Shown piece by piece: positions 26,307 to 46,031 of a stretch of DNA of 64,000 nucleotides (position 1 is its first letter; the number at the start of each line of letters is the position of its first letter). The notes under the pieces are model-generated. The model ran no database searches. It was given only the letters and a program-made list of their open reading frames with translations, and had not been told where the DNA came from. Source of the stretch: Desulfosporosinus sp. (GTDB lineage: Bacteria > Bacillota > Desulfitobacteriia > Desulfitobacteriales > Desulfitobacteriaceae). The stretch is from positions 37,369 through 101,368 of the forward strand of contig JARLHV010000050.1 of assembly GCA_031292055.1 (NCBI GenBank). Reading direction: 5' to 3'. The position numbers and the translations under genes are program-made.

Positions 26307-26319
26307 GGATTAAGGCTTA

Positions 26320-29240: not shown

Positions 29241-29417
29241 ATATTCAGTTGGTATTCTGAGTCAAATGTATTTTACGTACTGGCTTTTTGCCGTATATAA
29301 AATATTTGTTAATTTTGCAGGAATATTTAGGAAACGTGTAGAAGGTTTCTTTTAGTCGATTTAGTCTGACTCAAGAGGATGTTGAGTCCTTTGCTAGAAG
29401 AGATGGGAGGAGAAATA

Positions 29418-30785: not shown

Positions 30786-31426
30786 TCCTGCATCAATATC
30801 AGCCTCTCAAACGACTCCTGCTCCTTAATAACAACATCACGATGGCTGAGTTCAATCAGATCAAAAATGGTATGACTTATGATGAGTTATGATAAGCTTT
30901 ATGTGTAGTAGATAATAAACAGCTAGAAACTTCTTTTACAGACGCTCCTAGCTGTTTTTCTTCCTTTTAAAAATGTCACTAACTGCTAGGATCGGAGTTT
31001 AAGCAGCTAGTTCCGAAAGAGTGTCGGTAGTTAATTAGGATAGCTCGGATAGTTTCGTTATGTGACGCATAGGACTGATAAATAAATGTTTGATCGGAAG
31101 GGGGCCGATCTTTTTTCTCCAAAAAAATTTAATAAACCGTAAATCCACTTTTCATAATAGGCTATTTTGTGAATGGGGTGGCCCTACTCACGTTCATATT
31201 ACTGAGGCATATGTGCATCGTTAGATTCGTTAAGGGCCGTATCTATATATTAGTGAATGTATTTTCCCTGCACCAGGCATAGGCAAATGGATGTACCCCC
31301 AAATGTTAGCTTAGGGTGGCTTCAATTTAGCAACGTACAAATTATAATTGCTCTACCAATTCACTTATCTAACAAATTCCCAGGTGGGACATAAAAGAGC
31401 TGCTAAAAAAGAAAGGGGCACTCCCT

Positions 31427-32272
31427 TTACGAGAATGCCTTATCAATAGCTACCTCTAGATCTCTTTCTGTGGGCTTGGAATAACGTCTCGTTACATTGA
31501 TATCAGCATGTCCACACAGATCAGCTACAGTGGAGAGATCCACTCCTTTACTAACCAGTTCCCGTGCAAAGGTATGTCTTAGTGCATGAGGGTGAACGCC
31601 GTAATTGCTTAACATATGTTGGACTGCTCTCACACTGATTCTCTGACGGAAATTTGAGAAGAACAATGCTGGATCATTATCATCTCTGGTCTCAAGGTAT
31701 TTACTTAGGTATAAACGTGCCTCAGTCGAGAGTGGTACACGTCTTGAGACATTCCCTTTACCATTACGGACTGTGATGGAACCAGACCGTTCTCCCGTCA
31801 CTACGTCCGATCTGTCAAGTGCTACTAGCTCAGACACACGGATGCCAGTTCGAATAAGTAGGTTCACGATGGCAATGTCACGGGAATTATCGTTTCTCTC
31901 GACTTCACGAAGTAGGTTATTCCGTTCAGTACGTTCTAACGATTCAGGTGCAATATTTTTAGCTTGACGTGCTTGTGGTAATCGTATATTCTCGATTATA
32001 TTGGGGCTACCGATGAAACGAGCAAATTGGGAGATGGCTGCAAATCGGTTATTGATCGTGCTGGCACTGTTGCCCTTTGACTCTAAGGATTGAATGAATA
32101 GTTGAACATCTATTCGGGTTAGTTTAGCCAGATCTCCATCGTTATTTTGCAACCAGTCGTTGAACATTTCTAGTGAGTGCCTGTAGTTCTTGGCTGTCAA
32201 TTGACTCTTGCCTTTGTCCAAAATGTGAACCTGAAAATCATCAATGACTTTTACGACACTTTTTTCGTCCAT
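31427..32272 (-). CDS. Second tyrosine recombinase (XerC/D-like) of element 1
   Basis: RDIAIVNLLIRTGIRVSE, VRNGKGN, HPHALRHTFA, GHADINVTRRY. Confidence 0.92.
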   Translation of the reverse strand: MDEKSVVKVIDDFQVHILDKGKSQLTAKNYRHSLEMFNDWLQNNDGDLAKLTRIDVQLFIQSLESKGNSASTINNRFAAISQFARFIGSPNIIENIRLPQARQAKNIAPESLERTERNNLLREVERNDNSRDIAIVNLLIRTGIRVSELVALDRSDVVTGERSGSITVRNGKGNVSRRVPLSTEARLYLSKYLETRDDNDPALFFSNFRQRISVRAVQHMLSNYGVHPHALRHTFARELVSKGVDLSTVADLCGHADINVTRRYSKPTERDLEVAIDKAFS

Positions 32273-32557
32273 TAGAGCACCTCTTTTGCTAGGCTTAGGG
32301 CTTTATTATAACATAAATTGTCGTATAACTCAATTTATACGACACGCATATTAGTTTTACTATCTCATATATGTTAGAATGGAGTAACGGTTTACTCCAT
32401 CGATGGACGCTAGGATAGTGGCTTACTTTTCTAATTCGAGACAATTGTGTAGTCCTGATGCTTAAAAGCTGTATACTAATGTTGCCAATTATAATAGTGG
32501 TAAAGAAGGATTTTATATATACAGTGTTGAATAACAAATAACATTAGTACTACTAGA

Positions 32558-33301
32558 ATGAAGGTAGCAGAAGTTATGGATTTAACGGCACTAAAGGGGT
32601 TAGATGAGGCTGAGCTTAAGACAGTAGTTCGAAGTTATGAAAGGTTTGAAGACCATCTATTGTCCTATGAAGGAGATAACCAAAAACAAGCATTTGAGTT
32701 ACTCCGTGTGGTGTTAGATGACGAAGAAAAACATGCACTCTTAGAATGTTTGCTTGGTGATAATGGATGGTATTGTTCTAACAATGGACGTCATGCAAAT
32801 ATGCTTAAGGTAATATCCTATGCTTTAGGTCAAACTAGTAATAGATTTTCCTTTAGGAAATATAACCAAGATGCAATTGAAGTGCTACTACGAACCATAC
32901 CTAAGGATGAACAACTCTTGCTTATGAGTTCATATATTAAACAGAAGCTAGTTACTTATTATACCTTGGTCAATAACTCTATTACGGAACTAGAACTGTT
33001 TCGGGGGTTAGACGAATATCCATTTAACGAATACTATAGTTCGTGTAATTTGGAATCATGGTCTTTAAAGTTTAACAAAGCTCGACATTTTGCTTATCCA
33101 GAGGGTGTAGTCATTAGGAAAACCATACCAATAATTGATGTCTTTGTTTATAGAGACAGCATTTTTCAGCCGGAGAATGCATTGAATTTAGATTCATTTG
33201 GTTATATTAGTACTGAAGAGGAATATATTATCGAGAACCAAGGTAGCTTATTGGAGTTAAGAGAGGGCATTACCTTCGTCAAATACCAAGATCATTTTTA
33301 G
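32558..33301 (+). CDS. Putative ADP-ribosyltransferase toxin (R-S-E clade)
   Basis: LFRG (R), ESWS (S-x-S) and TEEEYII (E-x-E) in canonical order; first gene of a TAC-like triad. Confidence 0.65.
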   Translation: MKVAEVMDLTALKGLDEAELKTVVRSYERFEDHLLSYEGDNQKQAFELLRVVLDDEEKHALLECLLGDNGWYCSNNGRHANMLKVISYALGQTSNRFSFRKYNQDAIEVLLRTIPKDEQLLLMSSYIKQKLVTYYTLVNNSITELELFRGLDEYPFNEYYSSCNLESWSLKFNKARHFAYPEGVVIRKTIPIIDVFVYRDSIFQPENALNLDSFGYISTEEEYIIENQGSLLELREGITFVKYQDHF

Positions 33302-33307
33302 AGGGGG

Positions 33308-33694
33308 ATGGATAGAATGACGATTAAATTTTTTGACGAGATACTCAGAGAAACGGAAGAACAGGGCTTTGCTTCACTTCCGCCCAATTGTGTAAGTGGT
33401 GAAGGTTACGAGGAATGGCTAAGAACCGATTCAGGCTTGCAAACAGAACTAAAAGAAGTAAGTTTACACTTGGAAAAAATCAGAAATTTTTTCTCCAAAG
33501 ATATTGAAGAATATAAAATTATAAATAAAATTATAGATGAATATAAAACAATATCGTATCCGTTAACGATTCAAACGAGGACTCTTGAAAAGTTGGAATG
33601 TAATGCCGAATTTTTATCGAACTTGTCTAAAAATGGACAAGCCATTAATAATGTAACATGGAAAGGTAGCTCTGAATATGGCCGAGCAAGTTAA
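33308..33694 (+). CDS. Putative antitoxin with C-terminal chaperone-addiction tail
   Basis: 128 aa, lies between the ART and SecB-like genes and overlaps the latter by 17 bp. Function inferred from position only. Confidence 0.5.
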   Translation: MDRMTIKFFDEILRETEEQGFASLPPNCVSGEGYEEWLRTDSGLQTELKEVSLHLEKIRNFFSKDIEEYKIINKIIDEYKTISYPLTIQTRTLEKLECNAEFLSNLSKNGQAINNVTWKGSSEYGRAS

Positions 33695-34127
33695 CGAAAC
33701 AATTGCACAGATTTCTTTTAAGGGATATAAGGTTCATAGACTTGAATTTAGACTTAATGATAATTTTTATCCTAAGGAAAAGTCTAAGATAGAGCTTGAT
33801 ATGGATTTTGATATCGATATTGGGATTGACAGACAAGAGAATATAGCAGTAATTAGCCTAAGATGCTTAATAAACAAGGAATATGAATCTATGAATCAAC
33901 CGTTGTTCTTAGATATTATTATTCAAAGTTTGTTTTCATTTGAATCGGGATTGCAAGATGAAAATCTGTATAATCTTTTGAACACCAATGCTGTGGCAAT
34001 TGTATTCCCATACTTAAGATCGGTCATTAGTACTGTTACCGTAAATTGTGGTGTGCCTCCAGTTATATTACCAACTTTAAATATAGTAGAGCTTGTGAAA
34101 AGGAAAAATAAGGAGAAAATCTCCTAA
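33678..34127 (+). CDS. SecB-like chaperone
   Basis: 149 aa; NAVAIVFPYLRSVISTVTVNCGVPPVILPTLN matches the SecB C-terminal signature (N-x-x-A-I-x-F-P-Y-x-R...P-P-x-x-L-P-x-x-N). Confidence 0.85.
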   Translation: MAEQVNETIAQISFKGYKVHRLEFRLNDNFYPKEKSKIELDMDFDIDIGIDRQENIAVISLRCLINKEYESMNQPLFLDIIIQSLFSFESGLQDENLYNLLNTNAVAIVFPYLRSVISTVTVNCGVPPVILPTLNIVELVKRKNKEKIS

Positions 34128-34733
34128 TCATCAAAAATTATGGACTTCACGTTTTTCATGCTAGGAAAATGGAGGTCCTTTTTGTTTAGTCCTAGGTTCG
34201 TTAACAATTCTTGCAATAAAAATTTTGCAGAAGTGAATCAAACAAAACAGCTTGGGTTAATGAACAACTGTGTATTCATCCGAGGAGTGTCACTCAAAGG
34301 TTAGTTTAATCGGATAGGGATAAATACTACTAAAAGAGGCACTTGCAACTACATCAAGGAAATGATTAGAAGCCGATCTGGGACGATTACTCTCAGTTAT
34401 TTACTGCTTTCTCACTTTACTATATTAAAGCAAGTTGTCCAGTTTGACGAGGAAACTAACCATAGAAATTAGTCACCACTTGAATGTCACTACTTATGTA
34501 GGTAGCTTGAAAGATCTAAACGAAGACACGCAAAAGTTAGTAGGTAACGTTTATTATGTCTGCAATAGCCCGTTTTTGGCTCTACGTTGGTATCCCGAAA
34601 TAGCTTGTTATACACGGACAAATGTCGTATAATTATTTCAGTAAGAAATGGGTACATGCCGAGGAAGTTGACGAAGCGAAAAATGCGTAGACCGTTGGTA
34701 CAGGCTGGTTTGAGGGCTTTATGACTTAGAAGG

Positions 34734-34783
34734 GGCTTCCCAAGCCGAGGATCGCGAGTTCGAATCTCGTCGTCCGCTCCATA
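34734..34783 (+). repeat. att copy 2 (tRNA-Gly 3' half, 50 bp)
   Basis: GGCTTCCCAAGCCGAGGATCGCGAGTTCGAATCTCGTCGTCCGCTCCATA, identical to 19318-19367. Confidence 0.95.
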
Positions 34784-34922
34784 TGAAATACTAGGCACTG
34801 CAAAGGATTGCGGTGCTTTTTGATTTTCCTGCTGAAGCTTCATAAGTTCTGTTTGACGACAATTTGACGACAACCAGCGTTTAGTCAACAAAAAGAGAAG
34901 CGCTGAGGGCATCCTCAGCGCT

Positions 34923-36140
34923 TTATCTAACTGACTTTAGAATAATATTACCGAGCCGGGCAACTGCTCTTACTTTACCTTCCGGGGTACTATGCCCGTA
35001 AATATCTAATGTAGTACTCATCTTGGCATGGCCTAGAAGTTCGCTGACATTTGTTACGGCTTCACCATCATCCAGGAGAAGGGAAGCTACGGTATGGCGA
35101 AGATCGTGGACTCTAACGTGTTTAAGTCCAGCCTTTTTTATAATAGAGGCGTGTTTGCGGTTCAAATTCCGTGGTTCGATAGGGGTTCCAACTTCGCTGG
35201 TAAACAGCAGCCCACTGTCCTGATATCTTGGTCCAAAGAACATTTTTTCTTGTCGCTGCATAGCTTGAAATCGCTTTATTTCTTTGACTACTTCAGGTAA
35301 TAAAGGGATTATGCGTTTGCTCTTTTTAGTTTTTGGAGTGGAAAAAATGAGTTCGGATTTTTCTTCTCCTTCAAGCTTCTTCCGCTTTAGGGTTTGTATT
35401 ATATCAATTTTCGCTTTAGTGGGGTCAAATTGATCCCTTGGAATTCCCAGCAATTCTCCACGCCTTAGTCCGGTCGTCAGCTCTAACAAAAAGAGGGCAT
35501 ATAATCGATCCTCTCGCAGTGTCTCAAGATAAATTCGGACCTCTTCTTCGGTGAACGTCTCAAACTCTTTATACTGAATACTAGGAAGCTCAACTTCGTC
35601 CGCGGGGTTAAATGATAGCATGCGCAGTTTCAAAGCTTTTCTTAGGCAGCCGTTAATTAATTGGTGCATCATGTGAAGGCGACGGGTTGACAGGCCTCCT
35701 GCCTTGCCATCCATACGCCCGGATTTGGCCTTTAGATTATAGAATTCCTGAATGGTAATACCATGTAAGTCTTGAAGTGTTATTGCCCCAAGAAGGGGCA
35801 AAATATGCTTCGTAGCGAGGCTTACATAATCCGAATTAGTTTCTGGCTTAACATTTGGTTTTATGTAAATCTCAAGCCATTCTCCGAAGGTCAATTTTGA
35901 TGATTCTATATACATTCCCGAACGGAATTGTTGTTTAAACTCCGTTAGCTTAGCCTCAACCTCTTTTTGGCTCTTGCCAAAGAGAGATTTGCGTTTCGGT
36001 TTTCCCTCGCCATTATAGCCTATGATAATCTTCGCTTCCCAGCGACCGTCTGAGCGTTGATATAATGTGCCTTCATTATTAGCCCGTTTTCCAGCCTTCT
36101 TCTTTTTCTTCTTTGCTTTCTCTTCTACCATTCTGCTCAT
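34923..36140 (-). CDS. Phage/ICE-type tyrosine integrase of element 2
   Basis: N-terminal arm-binding region NEGTLYQRSDGRWEA; TTGLRRGELLG, VRVHDLRHTVAS, LGHAKMSTTLDIYGH. Confidence 0.95.
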   Translation of the reverse strand: MSRMVEEKAKKKKKKAGKRANNEGTLYQRSDGRWEAKIIIGYNGEGKPKRKSLFGKSQKEVEAKLTEFKQQFRSGMYIESSKLTFGEWLEIYIKPNVKPETNSDYVSLATKHILPLLGAITLQDLHGITIQEFYNLKAKSGRMDGKAGGLSTRRLHMMHQLINGCLRKALKLRMLSFNPADEVELPSIQYKEFETFTEEEVRIYLETLREDRLYALFLLELTTGLRRGELLGIPRDQFDPTKAKIDIIQTLKRKKLEGEEKSELIFSTPKTKKSKRIIPLLPEVVKEIKRFQAMQRQEKMFFGPRYQDSGLLFTSEVGTPIEPRNLNRKHASIIKKAGLKHVRVHDLRHTVASLLLDDGEAVTNVSELLGHAKMSTTLDIYGHSTPEGKVRAVARLGNIILKSVR

Positions 36141-36332
36141 TTCCCCCTATCCCGTTGCAGGCTGCAGTTTAAACCATCCCAAATTTGACAATCATCCTGA
36201 AGGCAATCCTGGTAAACGTGGATCATCGAGTTACCCTTGCCTGAGAAAGGAGCTAAGAATGGACATTTTCGGATAGGGTGTTTACCTTTGATGCTCAATG
36301 TTTTCATTCCTTTTATTGGGGCTCTGAAAAAG

Positions 36333-36450
36333 CAAAAAACCCCACACTTCTCTCGTAAAAAAGAAATGTGGGGCTCGAAGGCCCTCTAATATTGACGCTC
36401 TGGCTCTCTGACCTTTCGCGAAAGGTACTGGTGCTCTGGCGCTCTCACAT
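36333..36450 (-). ncRNA. Candidate small RNA, copy 1 (~115 nt)
   Basis: TTGCGA-17-TATAAT promoter (36483-36455) overlaps the end of the upstream gene; internal hairpins; CCCCACATTTC/GAAGTGTGGGG + T-tract terminator; homologous to 39001-39120. Confidence 0.65.
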
Positions 36451-36472
36451 ATACATTATATAGAGGTATGGA

Positions 36473-36799
36473 TTAGATCGCAACTTCATTTACTTTTGTT
36501 TTATCAAGATATTCCGCAGTTAATTTTTGAAGTTCAGTTTGTCTATCAAATACGAGTTCCTTTTGACCACCTTTAGTCATATAAACGCTCCGTAGGTGAT
36601 CATCATGATTGAAGTGGTAGTGAAATATTGCTTCATTTCCATCTTCGGTCATACACTGCATTTCTGCTATAAGCCCACTTTCCTCTTTGTAATAAGTGAC
36701 GTATTTATAATTTGGCAACTTGGCGTTTTCTAAAAGGTTATACGGCGTTACTACAGGACGGTACAAAAGTTCGTAAATATTTTTAATATAGTTTTCCAT
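36473..36799 (-). CDS. Hypothetical protein (108 aa), partner of the helicase gene
   Basis: RBS GGGAGG; starts 33 bp after the helicase stop; no recognised domain. Confidence 0.7.
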   Translation of the reverse strand: MENYIKNIYELLYRPVVTPYNLLENAKLPNYKYVTYYKEESGLIAEMQCMTEDGNEAIFHYHFNHDDHLRSVYMTKGGQKELVFDRQTELQKLTAEYLDKTKVNEVAI

Positions 36800-36832
36800 T
36801 ATTAAACCTCCCTTAGGCGTTTTTATTTTAAG

Positions 36833-38637
36833 TTATGGTGTCCCAAGGTAGTCTTCTATAACCTTTTGTGCATATTCCAGAATTTCGGGGAGTTTTTCAT
36901 GTGCCATCTCGTAATCGTCTATACTCCAATTAGGCCTTTTAGCACCGACTTCTGAGTTAAGATAGTTTGCAAAATAGACGGCCAGCATACCACCGTTATC
37001 TTTAACCCTATTTTTTATCCATGAGAATCTCCCTTGAAATAATGGGCAATTTTTTAAGTTGTCACTATGTTGGTTGATAGAAAACCTGCTTATGAGTTCC
37101 GGGACAATAATTTCTTTTATTGTAACATCAATATCCTTTCGCTTACTAGCGAAATATTTGTCTGGCCGTTTGATATCTGAATCTTTATTTTCGGTTAAAT
37201 TAATTACTTTAAGAGCCTCTTCCCTGTTTATGTTGAGTATTTTTTGAATTTCGGCAATTTTCTCCTCGCGAATTTTGTCTTCTTCCTGTTTTCGCTTTAG
37301 AACAGCAGTAGTAAGATAAATATCACCGATTAGTTCTCCGGTCCCTCGCTCACTAGCATAACCAATATCTATGGGGTTTACTTTATCATTGTTCTTTGGA
37401 GAACCAGATAGTTGATCCTCAATTATATCTTGTTCTCTTAAGTGTTTTATTATCTCGCTTTCCTTCATTTCTTCCTTATAAACTTCCCACAAATCGTCAA
37501 GGCCTAGGTGCTTATGTGATACTATTTGACCGATATTATCTTCGGCTCTCAGTGCTAGCTCGTTAGGAATTGATCGCAGGATTCGTCCTATGAATTGAGC
37601 ATAAGGTAGTGGATTTCTAAAAGGTCTAAAATTGCTTGCTCTTTCAGCTCATCCGTGAGATTGCTATGAATAATGGTCGTAGGATATCCCTTGGAAACGT
37701 ACAAGTCCTTTATTTGTTCAGCATGATCAATGCTACAAGCTGTAGCAATAATCTTGTGGGGTACGTTATTGCCTCGCTCGAGCTTTTTCTCTAGTAACTC
37801 AATACTTTTATCAACTACCTTTTCAGAGCACTCTTTAGAATAGGCAACAGAACGGCTTACCCAGTCCTCGTCTTTCAGGTTCATTTTATAAATTTGATCA
37901 ACTGTGTAAGTCTTTGATGGGTCTTTGTCAATCGTGAGATATAGTTCACCGGGGATATAGGTTAGATTTTCGAGGCTTTTAACATATTCATTTGCCATAG
38001 CTTGGCTTAACTTATATATGTAAACCAGATCCCCAGCGATTTCTTTTTTGTCAGTTCGAATAGGGGTTCCAGTGACCTTAACAATTTTTGCACCTGAAAA
38101 GTGTTGGATTGCTTCCACCCATGTTCGGGCAGTTGAATGGTGTGCTTCGTCAATAATTATCATATCAAAAAAGTCAGAAGGGAGAAATTTAAGAGGCGAT
38201 GATCCTAAACGATTTTGTAACTTTTGGACATTCATCACTACAAGATTAGCTGCTTCTAGAACTTCAACCGTTGTCTTATTACTTTCAAATTCTACTAGTG
38301 ACGGTAGTGACTTTGGTCTCTCGAAAACTTTTCTCTTGAGCCAGAAGTTATCTGAGAGTTCGGGGTTTAATGCGTCGATAACGGTATCTTTAATTACAAT
38401 TTGTGGAGCGATGATTAACACTCTGCCTGAACATATGTTGTAAGGTAGTAAGCCCATGAGGCCAGTCTTTCCTACTCCTGTTGGTAAAATTATTATAGCA
38501 TGAGAGGTTTTTTTCTTTACAATGAAATGTTCATAAACGTGAAAATAGCCTTGGATTTGCGGTTCCCTTAAATCGTTATTGCCATATATATACGGTTCCT
38601 CATCCTTAAAGTAACTAGGATTGTAACCAAAACCCAT
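36833..38637 (-). pseudogene. DEAD/DEAH-box (SF2) helicase interrupted by a deletion/frameshift near 37630
   Basis: LPTGVGKT, IIIDEAHHS, VTGTPIR in the 5' ORF; the +1 frame resumes FRPFRNPLPYAQFIGRILR (motif VI) and continues into ORF 36833-37492; the motif V region is missing. Confidence 0.8.
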
Positions 38638-39000
38638 TTATAATTCCTCCGTATCTTAAATGTTTTTTAATATACCTAGCGGCCGTCTCATGAGTCAACA
38701 TAGGGTACTTCCTCAAGGAATTAGCATTAATTAATTGCTTATTCGATCTGCATAAATAATAAATACCATTTAATCCTATCTTTATATATTGTAGCATATT
38801 TATCTAATAATATTTTTTCTCTTTGAGAAAAATGTCTTGAGATCTTGCGGGCATTGCTCATTTTGTAATTTTTCTAATATAACGACTGGTCAGTTATTTT
38901 TTGAAGGCTTCTAAAATTGATGCGAATACCATCTAACATCAATAGATACCGGCCAAGTATTTTGATGCCCAATGTTTTCATCCATATATCAGGGGGCTCT

Positions 39001-39120
39001 AAAAAAACAAAAGCCCCGCATTTCTTTCCAACAAGAAAATGTGGGGCTAGTAGGCCATACAATATTGGTGCACCAGTTCTGATCTTTCTAAAAATGAGCT
39101 AGTGTATTGGTACTTTTTAT
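39001..39120 (-). ncRNA. Candidate small RNA, copy 2 (~115 nt)
   Basis: TATACT -10 (39129-39124) just after the SAS stop; same block order as copy 1; GCCCCACATTT/AAATGCGGGGC + T-tract terminator. Confidence 0.6.
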
Positions 39121-39160
39121 ATGAGTATAAGCTAGAATGTATTAGCGTTAAAGCCATCAC

Positions 39161-40126
39161 CTAAAAAGAGTATCCTAAATCTACAAATAAAGGGTGCAAT
39201 AAAGCGGGGGTGAGTGGCCAGTATTGTTTAACTTGGCTTCTTTTTTTAGCAATAAGATAATATAACACTAAAACAATAGGCTGGCGGTATAATAGGTTCC
39301 GATCATAATTTTTTTTGATCAAGTCGAAAACATATGGATGCTCTCTAAAATACGTGCTAATTTCATGCATTTGGACTGAGACCATGAGTTCTTTATATGC
39401 ATCAAGAATAAAAATGTTTAATCCCTTTTCAAATTCCGGCTCTTTGAAACTCGAATAGATTGTTGTTAATTCAGGAAGAAGTAAATGTTCATTACTATTT
39501 GCTTTTAGCATATCATTTACCTCCTCGAAAATCTTGTCCGTCGTTTCAATTAAGGCCATACTTTGAGCAATCAATCGATGCATTTTAGGTAATGTACGTG
39601 TTTTAGGCTTATAAACCGTATCGTGTGTTAGCTCGCTGTATGCATGCTGAAGCAGGGTTCTTATTTGCACTTCGCAGGGTGTACCAATTGGAATCTCTAT
39701 GTCTTCAAATTTTATCACTTTTCGATTTCTAACGATATAGTGTACAGATTGATAAGTAAATATATTAGGATTATCTAGGCGCTCTTTTTCAAAATCTCGA
39801 TCCTTCGAAGACTCCCATTCCTGTCGTTCTACAATGCATGAGAGTGTCTTTATATCATCAACCAATAGCACGACAAATCTTATACCAACTTTGTCTGTAA
39901 TGTCATCGAAAGGGTTTGAATATTCTTTTCCACAATAGAAAGCCTTCTGAATCAGAGAGTTAAGTTCTTTCACCCGGGATGTAGGTGTTATCCTAAGGAA
40001 AGTGGCGACATCTTCAACATCTTTAGTCAGTTCGGAAATTATTATTTCTTTTATGTATTCGCCCCAAGCAGTATAAATGTGTTTCTTACTATTAAACTTT
40101 TCAGTGAATTCTTGCTCTGTCATCAT
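39161..40126 (-). CDS. Small alarmone synthetase (RelA/SpoT domain protein)
   Basis: SRVKELNSLIQKA, DITDKVGIRFV, YQSVHYIV, CEVQIRTLLQHAYSELTHDTVYK; no hydrolase domain; ATG 4 nt after the upstream stop. Confidence 0.88.
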   Translation of the reverse strand: MMTEQEFTEKFNSKKHIYTAWGEYIKEIIISELTKDVEDVATFLRITPTSRVKELNSLIQKAFYCGKEYSNPFDDITDKVGIRFVVLLVDDIKTLSCIVERQEWESSKDRDFEKERLDNPNIFTYQSVHYIVRNRKVIKFEDIEIPIGTPCEVQIRTLLQHAYSELTHDTVYKPKTRTLPKMHRLIAQSMALIETTDKIFEEVNDMLKANSNEHLLLPELTTIYSSFKEPEFEKGLNIFILDAYKELMVSVQMHEISTYFREHPYVFDLIKKNYDRNLLYRQPIVLVLYYLIAKKRSQVKQYWPLTPALLHPLFVDLGYSF

Positions 40127-40130
40127 CTTA

Positions 40131-41198
40131 TCATTGCCCTTTAATAAAACCTTCAATACGTAGCGTTGTTTTTGAACCCTCATGTCCGATGATTTCGACC
40201 AATTCATCAAAGTTATCGGAGGGAGCACTTAAGCTTACGTTTGAAGAAAATGTAATCTGTCTTTTCTTTAGTTTGTTTTGTATCAGGCTAATATCTTTAG
40301 CTACAGCGTGGCTCGGAAATTCATTGGCCTCCATATAGCTGCAATAATCATCTTTTTGCTCTGGAGTAAGGTATTCATCGCCAAATGCAGAAACGTCCAC
40401 TACGTTACTTTGGGAGACTTTTAGATAAGAATGTAGTGCCGACTGAAGTTCTACTTTTTTCTCATCTTGAACATTTAAGTTATCAATATAATCTTTGGTA
40501 TGAGTATGAAAATCCATTGTCCATCTTTTATCACTTGGGGAAAATTTACATCCAAAAAAAGATTCATAGAAATAGATTGCAGCTCCCGCAGTAGTAGTCA
40601 CATTCATGTTTTGGTCATATATATAGGCTTTAAACTGTTCAGCTGTTCTGGGAGTGTTTGGTTCAGAAGCACCTTCTTTTTCGATAAACATACCAATTTT
40701 GTATAGCTTTTGTTGAGGAGTAAGGCACAAATCTGATAATAATTCTAATAGTAATTGTTCGGAATTTTGTCGCAAACTAAAGCCCTCATGGATCTCAGCT
40801 TTAATAAACCCGATATATCTATCTGAATTTGATCCAACGGTTCCATCGAAAATAACTACTACCCCTCCTGGGATATTCCTTGCGGTCTGGGCCTCAGCAA
40901 GTTTATAAGCTATGTTTTGTGATTTCACGATGAACTCCTCATCATTGGTATCTAACATCTTTGCAGCAACACCAAATGTATCGCCATCTTGTGAATTTAC
41001 AATTTCCATTTCAACACTATGTGAATTATGACCAAGAACATCAATAATCCTATTCTGAAGAATAGTTAAAGCGTTCGCATCTAAGTTGGCCAATGAATTG
41101 TTGTATCTAGGTGTCTGAATTTCCCGAGTTTCAGTTCTCTCGAAAACTTGGTGAACAATAACTCTGTTAATTAATAGATTTGCAAATTGGTTACTCAA
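40131..41198 (-). CDS. Nucleoid-associated protein (NA37/NdpA-like)
   Basis: INRVIVHQV, IAYKLAEAQ...IPGGVVVI, FIKAEIHEGF, KLYKIGMF, YFYESFFGC pattern; TTG start after AAAGGAG. Confidence 0.7.
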   Translation of the reverse strand: MSNQFANLLINRVIVHQVFERTETREIQTPRYNNSLANLDANALTILQNRIIDVLGHNSHSVEMEIVNSQDGDTFGVAAKMLDTNDEEFIVKSQNIAYKLAEAQTARNIPGGVVVIFDGTVGSNSDRYIGFIKAEIHEGFSLRQNSEQLLLELLSDLCLTPQQKLYKIGMFIEKEGASEPNTPRTAEQFKAYIYDQNMNVTTTAGAAIYFYESFFGCKFSPSDKRWTMDFHTHTKDYIDNLNVQDEKKVELQSALHSYLKVSQSNVVDVSAFGDEYLTPEQKDDYCSYMEANEFPSHAVAKDISLIQNKLKKRQITFSSNVSLSAPSDNFDELVEIIGHEGSKTTLRIEGFIKGQ

Positions 41199-41611
41199 AT
41201 TTAATTCTCCTTTCATTATAACAAATGGCCTAAAAGCGAATACCTGTCAAATTAACCAAAGCAATCTATTTCTATACTATCTAGATCGCTATTTAATGGC
41301 AGTGTTTCATAAGAAGTAATTGTGAGCTTACCATCATCACTAGAATTTTTCACTTCTATCTTGAAAATTGCTTCTATCGGTTTTTCGTAGCTATATGTTC
41401 CGATTTCACAATTTGATGTCTATCTATAAAATCCGCTAATTCATAATAAGTATTATTTAGTTTGAACTCCGCATAATTTATACCTCTATCAAAGGACCTA
41501 AATAAACAATTGGTATCTAATATTATATAATTCAATTCATTTTTACTCCTTTACTAACTAACTTCAATAGCGGGACGCACATTAAAGTCTCTTATGTTTC
41601 CTTTCATAACT

Positions 41612-42382
41612 TCATAATGATCCTCTTACGCCACACCACGCTGGCGTCTTGTCGTACATCGTCGCTATTTTTAATGGCATACACGATAACAAATATTTAC
41701 CCCACATGCGCTTAGTTTCAATCCTGAAGGGATATCCCATGACCTCAATATTTCCATCAACCTTACGAGGATTAGAGAAATAACTAACTAAGAATTCCCT
41801 AAAAGTCTCGCGGTCAAGCCTTATACTAGACGCATGATATTCCCAATCAATTCGCCCTAACGAAGGATCAACCATAACCCAAAGTCCAGGTATAATATCA
41901 GTCTCTGCTAATCTTCGCGCAGCAGCCTCCAGACTCACATCACAATACTTTGCGAGTTTATTCACCAAGAATACCAAACTATCCGAATACTTCCTCACAA
42001 AGTCTGATACAATCCACGTCGGCATTAATAAAGCCGCAGCAAAACTATCTGCCTCCTGCTTTTCGCGCTCCGACTCACCCACGCCAGGTTGCTGAATACC
42101 ACCTCTATGATCAAGAAGCACATGGCCGAATTCGTGAGCCACACCAAACCGTTGCACAGATACTGGTAAAAGAGAGTTGACATAAATCAGCGCTATTTCT
42201 TGAGCCACCATAAGTCTAGCTATTAAACCATCTGGCAAAGGGCGTCTATGGAGATGAATTTCAACATCAAGCTTCTTTTCTATGGCGTAGGCTATATGGT
42301 CTAGGGATAATGGAAATTTCTCTCTGACAAGATAACGTTCCACGAATGCTTGAGCGACTAAGTCCTCTCTTTCTCCCATCAC
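41612..42382 (-). CDS. ImmA/IrrE-family metalloprotease
   Basis: QRFGVAHEFGH (HExxH), EKQEADSFAAALLMP, VSLEAAARR. Confidence 0.9.
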   Translation of the reverse strand: MMGEREDLVAQAFVERYLVREKFPLSLDHIAYAIEKKLDVEIHLHRRPLPDGLIARLMVAQEIALIYVNSLLPVSVQRFGVAHEFGHVLLDHRGGIQQPGVGESEREKQEADSFAAALLMPTWIVSDFVRKYSDSLVFLVNKLAKYCDVSLEAAARRLAETDIIPGLWVMVDPSLGRIDWEYHASSIRLDRETFREFLVSYFSNPRKVDGNIEVMGYPFRIETKRMWGKYLLSCMPLKIATMYDKTPAWCGVRGSL

Positions 42383-42502
42383 CGCACCCCTCCAATTGTC
42401 GAAACATTACAATAATTGATGATATATGTCGAATGCATATTAAAACAAGACAACTACCCTAACCAGGGTAGTTGTTTATCTATAATATGTATATTTGGAG
42501 GA

Positions 42503-42913
42503 TCATTTTTTCTCTTGATTACCTTTCTGGCGTTCCCAACGTTCACGTTCAAGCTTGTATAGATGTTCAATCTGATCTTTAATGAGATTTTGGCTCTCTT
42601 CGGATAGATCTCTGGCTTTATAGAAAATGAGAAGTTCATCTTCGGGGGTGGGGCGAAATTCGTTTGTATTATCAGATGTAAGGGACTTGGGGTTAGTTGT
42701 TCGGCCAAGCAGATAATCAGTAGTAGTATTATAAAAATCTGCAATTTTAGAGAGCTTTTCAGCATCAGGAGTTCTTTTTCCAGACTCATATTGAGATATT
42801 GCTGCTCTGTCAAGATTAAGAAATCCAGCTAAATCTTCTTGATTTTTTCCAACACTTAATCGCAAATTCTTCATTCGTCTGGCTAAAATATTATCCAAAT
42901 TAATCACTCCCAC
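42503..42913 (-). CDS. XRE-family repressor (ImmR/CI-like)
   Basis: QEDLAGFLNLDRAAISQYESGKRTPD...TTDYLLGRT. Confidence 0.92.
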   Translation of the reverse strand: MGVINLDNILARRMKNLRLSVGKNQEDLAGFLNLDRAAISQYESGKRTPDAEKLSKIADFYNTTTDYLLGRTTNPKSLTSDNTNEFRPTPEDELLIFYKARDLSEESQNLIKDQIEHLYKLERERWERQKGNQEKK

Positions 42914-43054
42914 GATTTAGCATATCACAAATTGTTAACAAGAAGAATAACCTGAAATGGTAGTAACAAAATGTTATGAATGGCATTGACACGTAACGAC
43001 ATGTTAGGTATAATCTTAGTAACGTATTGTTAACAAAACGCAAAGGAGGGTAAC

Positions 43055-43288
43055 ATGATAGAGAAATTAAGAGAAAGACTAGGTATTACTAAGGCTGAGA
43101 TGATTAGCCGACTGGGTATAACACGTAATTACTATTCGATGATTGCAAACGGTGAACGCCCGATATCAATGAAACTTGGAATTAAAATTAGGGATGAATT
43201 TGGAATTTCGCTTGACATAATATTTTTTCCGAGCATGTTAACAATATGTTACTATCCAAGCAAAAAGCAATCTGATTTCTTAATTTAG
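43055..43288 (+). CDS. Cro-like HTH regulator
   Basis: LGITRNYYSMIANGERPIS; divergent from the repressor. Confidence 0.8.
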   Translation: MIEKLRERLGITKAEMISRLGITRNYYSMIANGERPISMKLGIKIRDEFGISLDIIFFPSMLTICYYPSKKQSDFLI

Positions 43289-43312
43289 ATGAAATGATTG
43301 AGGGGGATGAAT

Positions 43313-43660
43313 ATGAACCAAGCGGCTAAGGCAATTAGCGATCCAAAGATGATTGCAAAGAATATTTCTAACTGGGATGAGTTGCCGTTGTTTCTGACGG
43401 TTGAGCAAACAGCTCAACTTATGCAATGCGGAACTGCCCATATTTACAACTTAGCCAGAACCAAGGATTTTCCTGCCAGGCGCATGACCAAAACCATCGT
43501 TATATCAAGGGATGGTTTGCGTCAATGGGCCGAAGGTGATGAAAAGTGGAAGCAAAGTATTACAATCTGGCAGTGGCAAAATATCCTTCAGCAAATGCAA
43601 AGGATGGGTGAGGTTTTGGAAAGGATTGAAAAAGGCCGTAATTTATATACCGGAACGTAG
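43313..43660 (+). CDS. Excisionase-like helix-turn-helix protein
   Basis: LPLFLTVEQTAQLMQCGTAHIYNLARTKDFPARRM...ISRDGLRQW (HTH_17/AlpA-like). Confidence 0.75.
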   Translation: MNQAAKAISDPKMIAKNISNWDELPLFLTVEQTAQLMQCGTAHIYNLARTKDFPARRMTKTIVISRDGLRQWAEGDEKWKQSITIWQWQNILQQMQRMGEVLERIEKGRNLYTGT

Positions 43661-43677
43661 AAACGGAGGGGATATCA

Positions 43678-43827
43678 ATGAATCAAATCAGATGTCCCTA
43701 CTGCGGTAGAAAACTAGCTGAATTCAACCTACATGGAAAGCTACTATTTAAAACTAAATGCCAAAAGTGCGGGAAAATCGTAAATATCATGTTGGAATAC
43801 GGTAATAAGGGGGAGAAGCCCAGTTAA
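43678..43827 (+). CDS. Com-family zinc-ribbon protein, 49 aa (absent from ORF track)
   Basis: RBS GGAGGG; MNQIRCPYCGRKLAEFNLHGKLLFKTKCQKCGKIVNI..., two CxxC pairs. Confidence 0.7.
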   Translation: MNQIRCPYCGRKLAEFNLHGKLLFKTKCQKCGKIVNIMLEYGNKGEKPS

Positions 43828-44005
43828 TTACGATTAGTTTTAAATAAAACATTAATTATGCTATTAGGTTAGCCATATTCTACCACCCGATTTGAGTTTT
43901 AACCATGAGACAAACACACTAAGAAGTATTTATCCCTGACATTGCGTCCTGAAAGAGTCCCTTATCATTCTGAAAATTAATTAATTTTAGTGGAGTTGAA
44001 GCAAA

Positions 44006-44218
44006 TTGAAATACAACTTCAACGTAGAAATTAACGGTTATAAGCTGGGCGTTGCCGTTGATAAGCCAAGTTACTGGGGGATATACAAAATGGCACTGAA
44101 GCCATTTAGTGTTGAAACTATTAATGCGAGAGAGGCTCTATCTCACGCATATTATGCCTTAACTCATAGCGGGCGGATTCAGAGTCAATTCCTTAAGGGC
44201 AAATCTGTAAGGTTGTAA
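44006..44218 (+). CDS. Hypothetical protein
   Basis: 70-aa ORF, TTG start after GGAG, co-oriented with the early operon. Confidence 0.4.
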   Translation: MKYNFNVEINGYKLGVAVDKPSYWGIYKMALKPFSVETINAREALSHAYYALTHSGRIQSQFLKGKSVRL

Positions 44219-44241
44219 GGAAAGAAAGGGGGTCAAGAGCT

Positions 44242-45144
44242 ATGTCCATAGACATAAAAGACGCCGTGACACAATTAGAGGAAATGTTCTGCAAAATCAA
44301 TACTCAAGTATTCGGAGATAGAGCAAGGGCCAAATGGCCCGTGATCATTAACCGTTGTTTTCATCGTCAGTCTGTAAGCTATGAATACCAATATCCAGAG
44401 GCATTCTTCACGAATCTTCAATTTCAGCTAAGAATCCTTTTCCCCTACGAACTGATAAAGTCAAAATCGAATCGTCTTATCTTAGTAAAGCTGATCATCG
44501 ACAAGCGTATAAGTGGTGAGATTGATACATTTACGTACCATTTCGGAATGTTCTTAATCAATAGAAATTTACACCACAGAGAGAAGGAGGATTTCTCTGA
44601 ATCGTCCATCGGTAAAAAGAGGGCTGAGTTTGTTCAGACGCTGCCAATTTCCTACTTTTTAAGCGAGGATGATTTTATTTCAGCGATATGGTCTCAACTG
44701 ATTGAATATCGGGGGACGGAAACTAGAGAGTACCAACGAAATCCGTTTCTGAAAAATGTCCGGATTCTATTTAGCAATGAACAGTATGCTTCCGTGACAG
44801 GCGTTAGTTATTTCAGCGATGTTACTTGGGTGGAACCCATTTCAGGGAAACTCGATTTGGAATGCCGTAAATGGTCTGAAGAAAACGACCCAATGGCCCC
44901 GATTAGGATTCCAGAAGGATGGGTTCAAGGTGCTATTGTTTTGAAAAATGAAAGTTCGGGCCTGCGTCATTATGTAGAAAGTGTTCCTGTCCATGCCGGA
45001 AGCGCCATGCAGGTGAAATTCGGGAACGGATGGATTGATGGCCGGTATGAGTGGAGCTTTGATGGTAAAAATAAGATCCAGGTTCATTGTAATGATGATG
45101 TCGTTTATATTTCTGAAGGCCACCAAGTGAGAGTCAGAGGGTAG
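44242..45144 (+). CDS. Hypothetical protein with probable C-terminal DUF5348-like domain
   Basis: RBS AAGGGGG; C-terminal LRHYVESVPVHAGSAMQV...WIDGRYEW pattern. Confidence 0.55.
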   Translation: MSIDIKDAVTQLEEMFCKINTQVFGDRARAKWPVIINRCFHRQSVSYEYQYPEAFFTNLQFQLRILFPYELIKSKSNRLILVKLIIDKRISGEIDTFTYHFGMFLINRNLHHREKEDFSESSIGKKRAEFVQTLPISYFLSEDDFISAIWSQLIEYRGTETREYQRNPFLKNVRILFSNEQYASVTGVSYFSDVTWVEPISGKLDLECRKWSEENDPMAPIRIPEGWVQGAIVLKNESSGLRHYVESVPVHAGSAMQVKFGNGWIDGRYEWSFDGKNKIQVHCNDDVVYISEGHQVRVRG

Positions 45145-45171
45145 GAGTAGTAATTATTGGAGGGGTATTAA

Positions 45172-45849
45172 TTGTCTTCAAATGAAAAAATTCTTGAGAA
45201 GCTCCGTAAAATCCTAGCTAAGGCCAATAACAATCCATCGGCTGAAGAAGCTGAAACAGCTATGCTGATCGCCCAAAGAATTATGGTTGAGAACAATTTA
45301 TGTATAGATGATGTCAATCTTACTGAAGGAGACAAAATTAAGAAGGAGGCTGTAGAAGTCACCGTGTCCGATAAGATGCGTCTGGCATGGTGGGAAAGCG
45401 ATATAACAAGCATAATCGCAAAGAATTTTCGGTGTAAGTCATTTACAAGACGTTTCGCTAACCAAAAAAATATCCGTTTATGTCTTATGGGGTTAAAAGA
45501 GGATGTCGAGATTGCCAAGGAAACTATATCTTATGCTCTGAAGGCTATGAGTTATTATTCTTCACAATTTGTAAAAGCGAATAAAGGCTCAGAATTCACA
45601 ACAACGCAAATTAGGAATAGTTGGTTGAATGGGTTCATTCGAGGCCTTGGGGCTAAATTTGATAAACAAGTGAAGCAGAACAATTGGGGCCTTGTACTGG
45701 TAAAAGACAAAGTTGTTGAAGATGCAATTGAAAAGTTAGGTCTTAAAAAGAGAAGAAGTACATCTATTACCGGCGGCATAAGCTCGGCTTATCAATCTGG
45801 ATATCGTCAGGGTCAATCCTTCGAGAGTAGATCTGGTGTTATTCGTTAA
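45172..45849 (+). CDS. DUF2786-domain protein
   Basis: KILEKLRKILAKANNNPSAEEAETAMLIAQRIMVENNL; SWLNGFIRGL. Confidence 0.8.
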   Translation: MSSNEKILEKLRKILAKANNNPSAEEAETAMLIAQRIMVENNLCIDDVNLTEGDKIKKEAVEVTVSDKMRLAWWESDITSIIAKNFRCKSFTRRFANQKNIRLCLMGLKEDVEIAKETISYALKAMSYYSSQFVKANKGSEFTTTQIRNSWLNGFIRGLGAKFDKQVKQNNWGLVLVKDKVVEDAIEKLGLKKRRSTSITGGISSAYQSGYRQGQSFESRSGVIR

Positions 45850-46031
45850 AGGGGGTGGAGAGGTGCTGATATTTAAAAAGAAAAAGCCCACACTGGCGGC
45901 AACCAGAGTGAGCGAACTGGAACGAAAGCTTTATAATTTCAATTCTCATTCTAAACGAAATTCCAGGTGTACACAAGTGCTTGATAAAATTTGTGGATTT
46001 CATCCAAGCAACGAATATCGCAAGAAGCGTT

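What the first reader, a model, noticed from the sequence alone, without database searches (positions are those of the whole stretch)
36321..39152. Twin homologous small RNAs, each with its own promoter and terminator, placed directly behind two different candidate defence operons
Seen (minus strand): copy 1 (~36450-36333) starts after TTGCGA-17-TATAAT, whose -35 overlaps the last codons of the 108-aa gene; copy 2 (~39120-39001) starts after a TATACT -10 just behind the alarmone synthetase stop. They align block for block at the same distance from the -10: CCA...CAC.AG, a hairpin ending AAAG.TCAGA (ACCTTT-CGCG-AAAGGT versus ATTTT-TAGA-AAGAT), AATATT, GGC-CT.C.A-GCC, a CCCCACATTT terminator stem with compensatory changes, a T-tract and AGAGCCCC. 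Copy 1 also repeats GCCAGAGC at a 36-nt period. The two upstream operons share no protein similarity. Established: type III TA (ToxIN) and AbiF-type systems use short structured cis-encoded RNAs as antitoxins. Inference: an undescribed RNA family acting as antitoxin or cofactor for an (NA37 + SAS) module and a (helicase + small protein) module. This is the best candidate for a new system in the window.
Basis: partly seen in the sequence, partly recalled or inferred. Interest (0 to 1): 0.88.

Follow-up and report, generated by a model that had tools for sequence, protein, structure and literature searches.

The report
Conserved RNA leader before prophage integrase genes
The two look-alike small RNAs are real, but they are copies (one intact, one decaying) of a structured promoter-to-terminator leader that always sits just upstream of the integrase gene in a group of Desulfosporosinus-type prophage-like elements. 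They are not partners of the defence genes in front of them.

Summary
Two homologous ~130-nt minus-strand elements exist (c1 36447-36317, c2 39118-38992; nhmmer E~1e-16), each with a sigma70-like promoter and a terminator hairpin. The homology continues about 40 nt past the terminator, into the first codons of a small gene.

The interpretation does not hold. Pattern scans, an integrase-guided search and a covariance model found 15 distinct intact relatives plus one lacking the 5' domain, in Desulfosporosinus, Paradesulfitobacterium, metagenomes and IMG/VR. Every intact one lies 15-30 nt upstream of the start of an integrase gene, or of a 56-aa ORF coupled to it. These integrases are three tyrosine subfamilies (23-29% identical) and a large serine recombinase.

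The genes upstream are variable cargo (toxin-antitoxin, Mrr, Bro, ATPase) or simply immA. A 97-98% identical relative lacks c2. c2 and its orthologue in another contig are decayed relics (57 and 45 bits versus 104-142).

Covariation supports a 5' hairpin domain followed by an 18-bp terminator. No Rfam family matches.

Most likely this is a cis-acting leader/attenuator that limits integrase expression and terminates the upstream immunity/cargo operon. It also marks the edges of a cargo slot. It is a new candidate RNA family of a known kind; the factor it responds to is unknown.

The parts
36455..36483 (-). Promoter of leader copy 1 (TTGCGA-17-TATAAT). The -35 lies in the last codons of the 108-aa gene.
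   Evidence: A -10 box 1-8 nt (5-8 nt in all but L018) before leader position 1, and a -35 box 17-18 nt further upstream, are present in 13 of the 16 non-relic family members checked (sequences for L035-L037).
36317..36447 (-). Leader copy 1 (c1), intact. It comprises the 5' domain H1+P1 (36442-36395), an A/U linker, AGAGGGCC (36387-36380), the terminator stem-loop (36376-36337), the U-tract (36336-36327) and AGAGCCCC (36325-36318).
   Evidence: Covariance-model score 140 bits; fold -41.8 kcal/mol, z=-2.9; consensus structure and covariation; terminator scan.
36137..36307 (-). orf56, a small Cys-rich protein gene between the leader and the integrase. Its stop overlaps the integrase start (ATGA).
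   Evidence: Compared with L014 and L016, the differences are mostly synonymous third-position changes, there is an in-frame indel, and the stop is kept. No Pfam or PHROG hit.
34923..36140 (-). Tyrosine integrase of island B, the gene the leader precedes.
   Evidence: Pfam Phage_integrase and Phage_int_SAM_3.
34734..34790 (+). Copy of the 3' half of tRNA-Gly(ccc), an att repeat beside the integrase. The partner repeat is at 47381-47437 and the intact tRNA at 19291-19365.
   Evidence: Repeat family D1; tRNA.
39124..39151 (-). Promoter-like site of copy 2 (TTAACG-16-TATACT).
38992..39118 (-). Leader copy 2 (c2), a decayed relic. The terminator (about 39049-39012) is kept. The AGAG..CC repeats of the 5' domain are lost.
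   Evidence: Covariance-model score 57 bits versus 104-142 for intact members. Only 1 AGAGNNCC left versus 5 in c1. Weaker fold, z=-1.6. The orthologue L014b is even more decayed (45 bits). Absent from L016.
38961..38981 (-). Remnant of the first 7 codons of orf56 behind c2. Homology to c1 ends here, and unrelated sequence follows.
36473..36799 (-). 108-aa gene (phrog_12848, unknown function), cargo upstream of c1.
   Evidence: A 60% identical 109-aa gene lies in front of the leader in Paradesulfitobacterium. A 28-32x RNA contig covers it and runs into c1.
36833..38637 (-). ResIII helicase gene, disrupted (ORFs of 349 and 219 aa).
   Evidence: tblastn with the intact 539-aa homologue of L027: residues 1-338 fall in one frame and 364-538 in another, with the break near 37621-37639. 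Pfam ResIII.
39161..41216 (-). NA37-like gene plus small alarmone synthetase (RelA_SpoT) gene, cargo upstream of c2.
   Evidence: RNA contigs of the SAS gene end at 39054-39060, just before the c2 terminator.

Best explanation
The element is the 5' leader of the integrase gene in a family of small prophage-like integrative elements of Desulfitobacteriaceae. These elements are laid out as immR - immA - variable cargo - LEADER - integrase - att.

Anatomy (shown):
- A sigma70 promoter starts an RNA of about 125 nt.
- Its first ~55 nt form an imperfect hairpin (H1 enclosing P1). The strands of this hairpin carry 8-nt AGAG..CC repeats.
- An A/U-rich linker and AGAGGGCC follow.
- Next come an 18-bp intrinsic terminator and a U-tract.
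- The ribosome-binding site and start codon of the integrase (or of orf56 plus integrase) lie 15-30 nt further on.

How it most likely works (inferred):
- By default the terminator ends both the leader transcript and the read-through from the upstream immunity/cargo operon. This keeps integrase expression low.
- Integrase is made only by read-through of the terminator.
- Read-through is probably increased when an unknown factor binds the conserved 5' domain or the AGAG..CC repeats, and/or stabilises the small hairpin GGGC/GCCC. That hairpin occupies the four C's at the base of the terminator.

Because the leader is conserved while its neighbours are not, it also serves as the homology anchor at which cargo cassettes and integrase genes are exchanged.

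Copy 2 is a leftover of such an event. It is an old leader plus the first 7 codons of orf56 that lost its integrase. It survives mainly as the terminator of the SAS operon and as the left flank of a cargo slot.
For: Position:
- All 16 non-relic members lie directly upstream of an integrase start.
- The integrases are three tyrosine subfamilies that are 23-29% identical, with tRNA-Thr or tRNA-Gly targets, and a large serine recombinase (Resolvase+Recombinase+Zn_ribbon).
- The leaders themselves score 104-142 bits and have about 80% mean column identity.

Promoter: it is conserved in position but not in flanking sequence. There is no room for another promoter between the terminator and the start codon.

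RNA structure: 95% of cells are paired versus 57% or less for slid controls. Ten pairs show changes on both sides (0 of 500 shuffles reach this), concentrated in P1, H1 and the upper terminator.

Small hairpin: P2 (GGGC/GCCC, -6.0 to -6.6 kcal/mol) is predicted in every intact member before the 3' strand of the terminator has been made. The terminators fold at -21 to -32 kcal/mol.

Transcripts: in three metatranscriptome runs a 28-32x contig covers the 108-aa gene, the c1 promoter and the leader 5' domain, and stops at 36381-36387. Depth beyond the terminator is about 3.5x. The SAS contig stops at 39054-39060, and 38232-38912 has zero depth.

Cassette boundaries: homology between the window and L014 breaks exactly at the end of c2 (38994) and the start of c1 (36445).

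c2 as a relic.
Against: - No read-level or strand-specific RNA data were available, only assembler contigs. The 5' end, the 3' end and the existence of a discrete ~125-nt RNA are therefore not shown.
- Regulated read-through is inferred. The only candidate antiterminator is 4 bp, its bases are invariant (so no covariation), and it is about 20 kcal/mol weaker than the terminator.
- The helix between AGAGGGCC and the post-terminator AGAGCCCC shows no covariation and is missing in L036 and L037.
- L007 lacks the whole 5' domain yet has an intact integrase.
- Related integrases in Desulfolucanica have no leader.
- The covariation rests on 18 related sequences aligned to the model, and some changes may be single inherited events.
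Confidence: 0.6

Rival explanations
1. Trans-acting phage small RNA. The ~125-nt terminated RNA is the functional product and base-pairs with host or phage mRNAs. Its place in front of the integrase is only synteny, and its terminator incidentally insulates the integrase.
For: It has its own promoter, a strong terminator, an A/U-rich single-stranded linker next to the terminator hairpin, and a structured 5' domain with covariation.
Against: The distance to the recombinase start codon is fixed and very short in all members, across four unrelated recombinase types. That is hard to explain for a purely trans-acting gene. There is no room for a separate integrase promoter. No target was identified.
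Confidence: 0.15
2. DNA-level module boundary only. The element is a conserved terminator plus integrase promoter region, kept because it insulates the integrase and provides homology for exchanging modules. The RNA 5' domain has no function.
For: Mosaic breakpoints lie exactly at the leader ends. The same leader is joined to unrelated integrases and cargo. L007 has lost the 5' domain. The c2-type relics keep mainly the terminator.
Against: Compensatory changes in P1 and H1 preserve pairing. The promoter is placed to transcribe the 5' domain, not to bypass the terminator. The 5' domain decays once the integrase is lost (c2, L014b), which points to selection tied to the integrase.
Confidence: 0.12
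3. One reading: an RNA antitoxin or cofactor (type III TA or AbiF-like) for the operon upstream (NA37+SAS; helicase+108 aa).
For: In the window, each copy lies just behind a candidate defence operon and is co-transcribed with it as its 3' end.
Against: - Upstream genes differ in every locus and are absent in L015 and L036.
- L016 keeps SAS without c2.
- There is no tandem repeat array and no ToxN/AbiF-type partner.
- There is no Rfam abiF, ToxI or DUF3800 match.
- The helicase of one 'operon' is a pseudogene.
Confidence: 0.03
4. Integron-like system. The repeated structured elements are folded single-stranded-DNA recombination sites (attC-like) at which the neighbouring integrase captures cargo cassettes.
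For: Twin copies flank a cassette slot whose content differs between the window and L014, and the breakpoints fall at the element ends, next to an integrase. Structured motifs found by comparative analysis can be ssDNA sites (PMC5737381).
Against: Most loci have a single copy. The second copy is decayed and carries 7 codons of orf56, which indicates deletion or homologous exchange. The same element precedes tyrosine and serine recombinases that cannot share a site. There are no R'/R'' boxes. A conserved promoter and terminator argue for RNA.
Confidence: 0.03
5. Type I toxin-antitoxin. A small hydrophobic peptide is encoded on the opposite strand across the terminator, with the leader acting as its antisense RNA.
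For: Plus-strand ORFs MLNVFIPFIGALKKQK... (c1) and MPNVFIHISGGSKK... (c2). There are weak, non-significant sok-like Rfam hits.
Against: The antisense ORF is absent or out of frame in L016, L015, L024 and most other members. The Rfam E-values are 1.4 and 5.8.
Confidence: 0.01

Closest known systems
Protein- or ligand-controlled transcription attenuation leaders of Firmicutes (trp/TRAP, hut/HutP, pyr/PyrR, bgl/LicT-type; own knowledge)
   Same: A promoter, a structured leader and an intrinsic terminator lie immediately before the regulated ORF. Short purine-rich repeats recur in the leader, as in TRAP and HutP targets. A small hairpin overlaps the 5' base of the terminator.
   Different: No binding protein or ligand is known. 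No Rfam family matches. The candidate antiterminator is only 4 bp. The regulated gene is a phage integrase of any type, not a metabolic operon.
Lambda int retroregulation (sib/tI; own knowledge)
   Same: An RNA hairpin-terminator decides how much integrase is made, depending on the transcript that carries it.
   Different: sib lies downstream of int and acts through RNase III on read-through transcripts. Here the element is upstream, has its own promoter, and shares no sequence with sib.
Lacto-int and other phage- or integrase-associated candidate RNA motifs (Weinberg et al. 2010, PMC2864571; 2017, PMC5737381)
   Same: A candidate structured RNA found by comparative analysis next to integrase genes in prophages, with unknown function.
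   Different: Lacto-int is listed for Lactobacillales and phages, and the paper's motif table gives it no Rfam accession. It could not be compared directly. The present family is from Desulfitobacteriaceae and includes a terminator and a promoter.
Type III TA antitoxin RNAs (ToxI) and the abiF RNA motif
   Same: A short structured RNA with a terminator in a defence-rich mobile-element region.
   Different: There is no tandem repeat array, no ToxN/AbiF partner and no Rfam match. The RNA lies downstream of the variable genes, and its constant partner is the integrase.
Integron attC sites
   Same: Repeated structured elements at cassette borders next to an integrase.
   Different: There are at most two copies, and one is decayed. 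There are no R'/R'' boxes and no IntI. Promoter and terminator are conserved. The element also occurs with serine recombinases.

Membership tests
Type III toxin-antitoxin (ToxIN-like) RNA antitoxin | Tandem array of near-identical short repeats (for example 36 nt, several copies) | tested here: not met
   Tandem Repeats Finder gives 0 rows over 36200-39300. Only 8-nt AGAG..CC motifs are present, and they form the two strands of a hairpin.
Type III toxin-antitoxin (ToxIN-like) RNA antitoxin | RNA encoded immediately upstream of a ToxN/AbiQ-type endoribonuclease gene that it neutralises | tested here: not met
   No such domain in the neighbouring proteins (Pfam and PADLOC). The constant downstream gene is an integrase.
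abiF / DUF3800 RNA motifs (Rfam) | Match to the Rfam covariance model | tested here: not met
   cmscan at gathering threshold and at E<=10 on c1, c2 and L003 gives no such hit.
Type I toxin-antitoxin | Conserved small toxin ORF overlapped by an antisense RNA | tested here: not met
   The antisense ORF is not conserved across members.
Transcription-attenuation leader (cis-regulatory 5' leader with intrinsic terminator) | Promoter followed by an untranslated leader directly upstream of the regulated ORF | tested here: met
   Promoter hexamers sit at a conserved position in 13 of the 16 non-relic members checked, and in both decayed copies. The RBS and start codon lie 15-30 nt after the element.
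Transcription-attenuation leader (cis-regulatory 5' leader with intrinsic terminator) | Intrinsic terminator (GC-rich stem plus U-tract) inside the leader | tested here: met
   18-bp stem, -21 to -32 kcal/mol, followed by a U-tract in all members. RNA contig depth drops about 8-fold across it.
Transcription-attenuation leader (cis-regulatory 5' leader with intrinsic terminator) | Mutually exclusive antiterminator structure, or a factor that prevents terminator formation | tested here: inconclusive
   Only a 4-bp hairpin (GGGC/GCCC) overlaps the terminator base. It is present in all intact members but invariant, so it shows no covariation. No factor was identified.
Known riboswitch classes | Match to a described aptamer family | tested here: not met
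   No Rfam 15 match.
Integron (attC cassette array) | An array of cassettes, each ending in an attC with R''/R' (GTTRRRY) boxes, next to an IntI integrase | tested here: not met
   No GTTRRRY/RYYYAAC pair can be seen in the element sequence. There are at most two copies. The element also precedes serine recombinases.
Lacto-int RNA motif | Sequence and structure consensus of the published motif | not testable with these tools
   The motif is listed in PMC2864571, and that table gives it no Rfam accession, so no model was available to search with.

The most novel reading that the evidence does not exclude
The leader is a true sensing riboregulator. Its conserved 5' hairpin with AGAG..CC repeats would bind a cellular or phage factor, protein or small molecule. 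That binding would switch the terminator off, coupling integrase synthesis to a physiological signal. The same sensor would have been grafted in front of both tyrosine and serine integrases.
Probability: 0.22. Interest if true: 0.75.

Novelty: new member of a known kind. Interest (0 to 1): 0.5.

Why it matters
How temperate elements of Firmicutes set integrase levels is poorly understood outside a few models. Here one portable RNA leader precedes integrases of two unrelated enzyme superfamilies. That points to a shared control input that can be tested directly with reporter fusions, termination assays and pull-downs.

The leader is also a practical landmark. It marks the integrase-proximal edge of a cargo slot that holds toxin-antitoxin, restriction-like and alarmone-synthetase genes. 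It therefore helps to delimit defence hotspots in these genomes.

The work also removes a tempting but wrong annotation of these RNAs as antitoxins.

Tried and rejected
- Rfam at gathering and permissive thresholds: nothing relevant.
- blastn against the phage collection: only 26-nt chance matches to Streptomyces phage tRNA-Thr, E=0.05.
- Two viral pattern scans gave 0 hits.
- Exact look-up of the window integrase: not on record.
- Viral scans with integrase proteins found almost nothing new.
- Guide-RNA idea, with the leader complementary or identical to the tRNA att target as in bridge RNAs: local alignment scores are no better than shuffles for the tRNA-Thr and tRNA-Gly groups.
- Arm-type integrase binding sites: AGAGNNCC clusters only in the leader, not near the att ends.
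- Antisense peptide (type I TA): not conserved.
- PyrR-binding-loop resemblance (CAGAGAG): seen only in some members, with no Rfam PyrR hit.
- The helix between AGAGGGCC and the post-terminator AGAGCCCC was predicted by RNAalifold, but it is invariant and absent in L036 and L037, so it is not claimed as established.
Full report
1. THE OBSERVATION

On the minus strand there are two homologous elements, c1 (36447-36317) and c2 (39118-38992). nhmmer with either copy finds the other at E=6.6e-16 and 3.8e-17 in the 64-kb window, and finds nothing else. Searches give the alignment.

A consensus scan finds TTGCGA-17-TATAAT (36483-36455) and an 18-bp terminator (36376-36337) for c1, and TTAACG-16-TATACT (39151-39124) for c2. 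c1 folds at -41.8 kcal/mol (z=-2.9). c2 folds more weakly (z=-1.6).

The GCCAGAGC repeat with a 36-nt period is real. It turns out to be the two strands of one helix.

The similarity continues beyond AGAGCCCC into ATGAAAACATTGRGCATCAAA. In c1 this is the start of a 56-aa ORF (36307-36137) whose stop overlaps the start of a tyrosine integrase (36140-34923).

2. THE SETTING

tRNA-Gly(ccc) at 19291-19365 is followed by two copies of its 3' half, at 34734-34790 and 47381-47437. Two islands are therefore integrated in tandem.

Island B (34790-47437) reads, on the minus strand:
- an HTH repressor and an ImmA-like M78 peptidase;
- NA37 and a small alarmone synthetase;
- c2;
- a ResIII helicase and a 108-aa gene;
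- c1;
- orf56 and the integrase;
- the att repeat.

Cro-like and excisionase-like genes lie on the other side. The helicase is disrupted. An intact 539-aa homologue aligns in two different frames, with about 25 residues missing near 37621-37639.

3. RELATIVES

Rfam has no match.

Relatives came from several searches:
- Pattern scans built from the conserved blocks found true relatives in IMG/VR (L003), in three Desulfosporosinus genomes (L005-L007) and in metagenome contigs (L013-L016, L018, L024). Chance hits were removed by inspection.
- A covariance model built from nine members was run on contigs fetched through integrase homologues. It added Paradesulfitobacterium aromaticivorans (L027), Desulfosporosinus sp. 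PR (L029) and L030. L034 carries a leader identical to that of L013.
- A scan for the 5' domain alone added L035-L038.

In all there are 15 distinct intact leaders (104-142 bits). L007 lacks the 5' domain through a deletion between two AGAGCGCC repeats (81 bits). Two copies are decayed: c2 (57 bits) and L014b (45 bits).

4. WHAT IS CONSTANT AND WHAT VARIES

Constant features:
- In 13 of the 16 non-relic members checked, a -10 box lies 1-8 nt (5-8 nt in all but L018) before the first conserved base. A -35 box lies 17-18 nt further upstream, often with an extended TGn. The surrounding sequence is not conserved.
- In all 16, the RBS and start codon of a recombinase gene follow 15-30 nt after the element. 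In the window, L014 and L016 this is orf56 followed by the integrase.

The recombinases themselves are of four types:
- three tyrosine-integrase subfamilies that share only 23-29% identity, which target tRNA-Thr(cgt) or tRNA-Gly(ccc);
- in L035-L038, a large serine recombinase with Resolvase, Recombinase and Zn_ribbon domains.

What varies is the gene upstream:
- a Panacea-domain TA pair (L018, L029, L037);
- Mrr plus RhuM (L005);
- Bro-N (L013, L034);
- unknowns (L006);
- HSDR_N plus an intact helicase plus a 109-aa gene (L027);
- nothing at all in L015 and L036, where the leader follows immA directly.

The RNA therefore belongs with the integrase, not with the operon in front of it.

5. STRUCTURE

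RNAalifold and the model alignment give four features:
- a 5' domain in which AGAGCGCCAGAG(C/G)ACC pairs with AGAGA(G/C)CCAGAGCGCC (H1), around a hairpin P1;
- an A/U-rich linker of variable length;
- AGAGGGCC;
- an 18-bp terminator.

On 18 sequences, 95.2% of cells pair, against 27-57% when partners are slid. Ten pairs have changes on both sides (0 of 500 shuffles reach this). Four of these are among the five P1 pairs, three are in H1 and three are in the terminator. Examples are C-G to U.G to U-A in L035/L037/L036, and A-U to G-C in L027.

The alignment is fitted to the model and the sequences are related, so this is good but not overwhelming support.

A helix between AGAGGGCC and the post-terminator AGAGCCCC is predicted. 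It is invariant and is missing in L036 and L037, so I do not rely on it.

Before the 3' strand of the terminator exists, every intact member is predicted to form GGGC/GCCC (-6.0 to -6.6 kcal/mol). This small hairpin uses the C's at the terminator base. The terminators themselves fold at -21 to -32 kcal/mol.

6. TRANSCRIPTS

Three metatranscriptome runs from the same study hold the locus, as assembler contigs only.
- A 28-32x contig covers 37005/37139 down to 36381-36387 in all three runs. This spans the 108-aa gene, the c1 promoter and the leader 5' domain.
- Nothing is assembled across the hairpin and U-tract.
- Contigs downstream, over orf56 and the integrase, have depth about 3.5.
- The SAS contig ends at 39054-39060, at the same relative position in c2, and 38232-38912 has depth 0.

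The upstream operons therefore read into the leaders and stop at their terminators.

These data cannot show a discrete small RNA, its ends or its strand.

7. COPY 2

c2 has lost four of the five AGAG..CC motifs. It scores far below the intact members. It is followed by only seven codons of orf56 before unrelated sequence begins.

Contig L014 is a relative of island B, 92% identical over NA37, SAS and c2. It has the same twin arrangement, but two things differ:
- Its c2-type copy is more decayed still, with deletions in the 5' domain and the ATG lost.
- The slot between its copies holds an AAA_15/AAA_21 ATPase and a 346-aa gene on the opposite strand.

Homology between the window and L014 breaks at 38994 (the end of c2) and resumes at 36445 (the first base of the c1 leader).

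Contig L016 is 97-98% identical to the window. It joins 39157 directly to 36919, so it lacks c2 and most of the helicase while keeping SAS, the 108-aa gene and c1.

The simplest history is this. An old leader-orf56-integrase module lost its integrase after a tandem insertion or a recombination event. Its terminator was kept for the SAS operon. The two leader copies now frame a cassette slot that is exchanged by recombination in the conserved flanks.

8. MECHANISM

Shown:
- the position in front of the integrase;
- the promoter and the terminator;
- a structured 5' domain;
- a drop in RNA depth across the terminator;
- mosaic breakpoints at the leader ends.

Inferred:
- integrase is expressed by read-through of the leader terminator;
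- read-through is modulated by a factor that recognises the highly conserved 5' domain or the AGAG..CC repeats, or that stabilises the small GGGC/GCCC hairpin.

The same leader serves unrelated recombinases. The factor is therefore unlikely to be the integrase itself. A host protein, a conserved phage protein or a small molecule are all possible.

Rivals are listed separately: a trans-acting small RNA, a DNA-level boundary only, the antitoxin model, an attC-like site and a type I TA. The antitoxin, attC and type I TA models each fail a direct test made here.

9. NOVELTY

No Rfam family and no paper found with the searches made describes this element. Candidate integrase-associated RNA motifs are known in other lineages, for example Lacto-int (PMC2864571). 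Attenuator leaders are a classical kind.

This is therefore a new family of a known kind. Its unusual feature is that it is shared by tyrosine and serine integrases, and it doubles as the edge of a defence/cargo slot.

I score interest at 0.5. It is above ordinary, because the leader is a clean and testable regulatory element.

Noticed in passing
window 19291-19365, 34734-34790, 47381-47437: tRNA-Gly(ccc) is followed by two direct copies of its 3' 57 nt (95% and 89% identical). This indicates two integrative islands in tandem, A at 19366-34733 and B at 34791-47437.
   Followed up: partly
window 19411-19484 and about 19530 onward (+): Island A starts with two 28-nt direct repeats (..ATGCCGAGGCTCTG) 46 nt apart. 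They lie just upstream of an integrase-like ORF (MARLRRIDGKKFLTREEC...). This integrase has no copy of the leader.
   Followed up: partly
window 36833-38637 (-): The ResIII helicase is a pseudogene. Compared with the intact 539-aa homologue in Paradesulfitobacterium (L027 2586-4205, 74% identical), about 25 residues are missing and the frame shifts near 37621-37639.
   Followed up: yes
window 36137-36307 (-); L014 280-453; L016 886-1056: orf56 is a conserved Cys-rich 56-57-aa protein (C15, C35, C40, C48) translationally coupled to the integrase. The substitutions are mostly synonymous, and it has no Pfam or PHROG family. Its function is unknown.
   Followed up: partly
L035 12858-14635; L036 4415-6274; L037 and L038: The same leader precedes a large serine recombinase in IMG/VR contigs. 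In L036 and L037 the post-terminator AGAGCCCC is missing.
   Followed up: yes
L007 4380-4465 (Desulfosporosinus metallidurans OL): A natural deletion of the whole 5' hairpin domain lies between two AGAGCGCC repeats. The promoter, terminator and integrase are still intact.
   Followed up: partly
L014 792-3209 (+): In a relative of island B, the slot between the twin leader copies holds an AAA_15/AAA_21 (AbiEii/OLD-like) ATPase plus a 346-aa protein on the opposite strand. The SAS gene there is split into ORFs of 137 and 185 aa.
   Followed up: partly
window 34783 (RNA contigs of runs X9 and X10): Some RNA contigs carry the tRNA-Gly 3' end followed by AGTATTTGCAAGGACTTTGCG, a sequence not present in the window. 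This suggests a differently occupied or empty tRNA-Gly site in the community.
   Followed up: no
window 39161-40228 and 40131-41216 (-): The listed SAS ORF (GTG start) overlaps the NA37 ORF by 98 nt. The real SAS start is probably the internal MMTEQEF. PADLOC matches the SAS only to candidate family PDC-S33.
   Followed up: no
window 46032-46634 (-) and 3072-3169 (+): An Mrr_cat restriction-endonuclease-like gene lies at the far end of island B. A tRNA-Sec gene lies near the start of the window.
   Followed up: no
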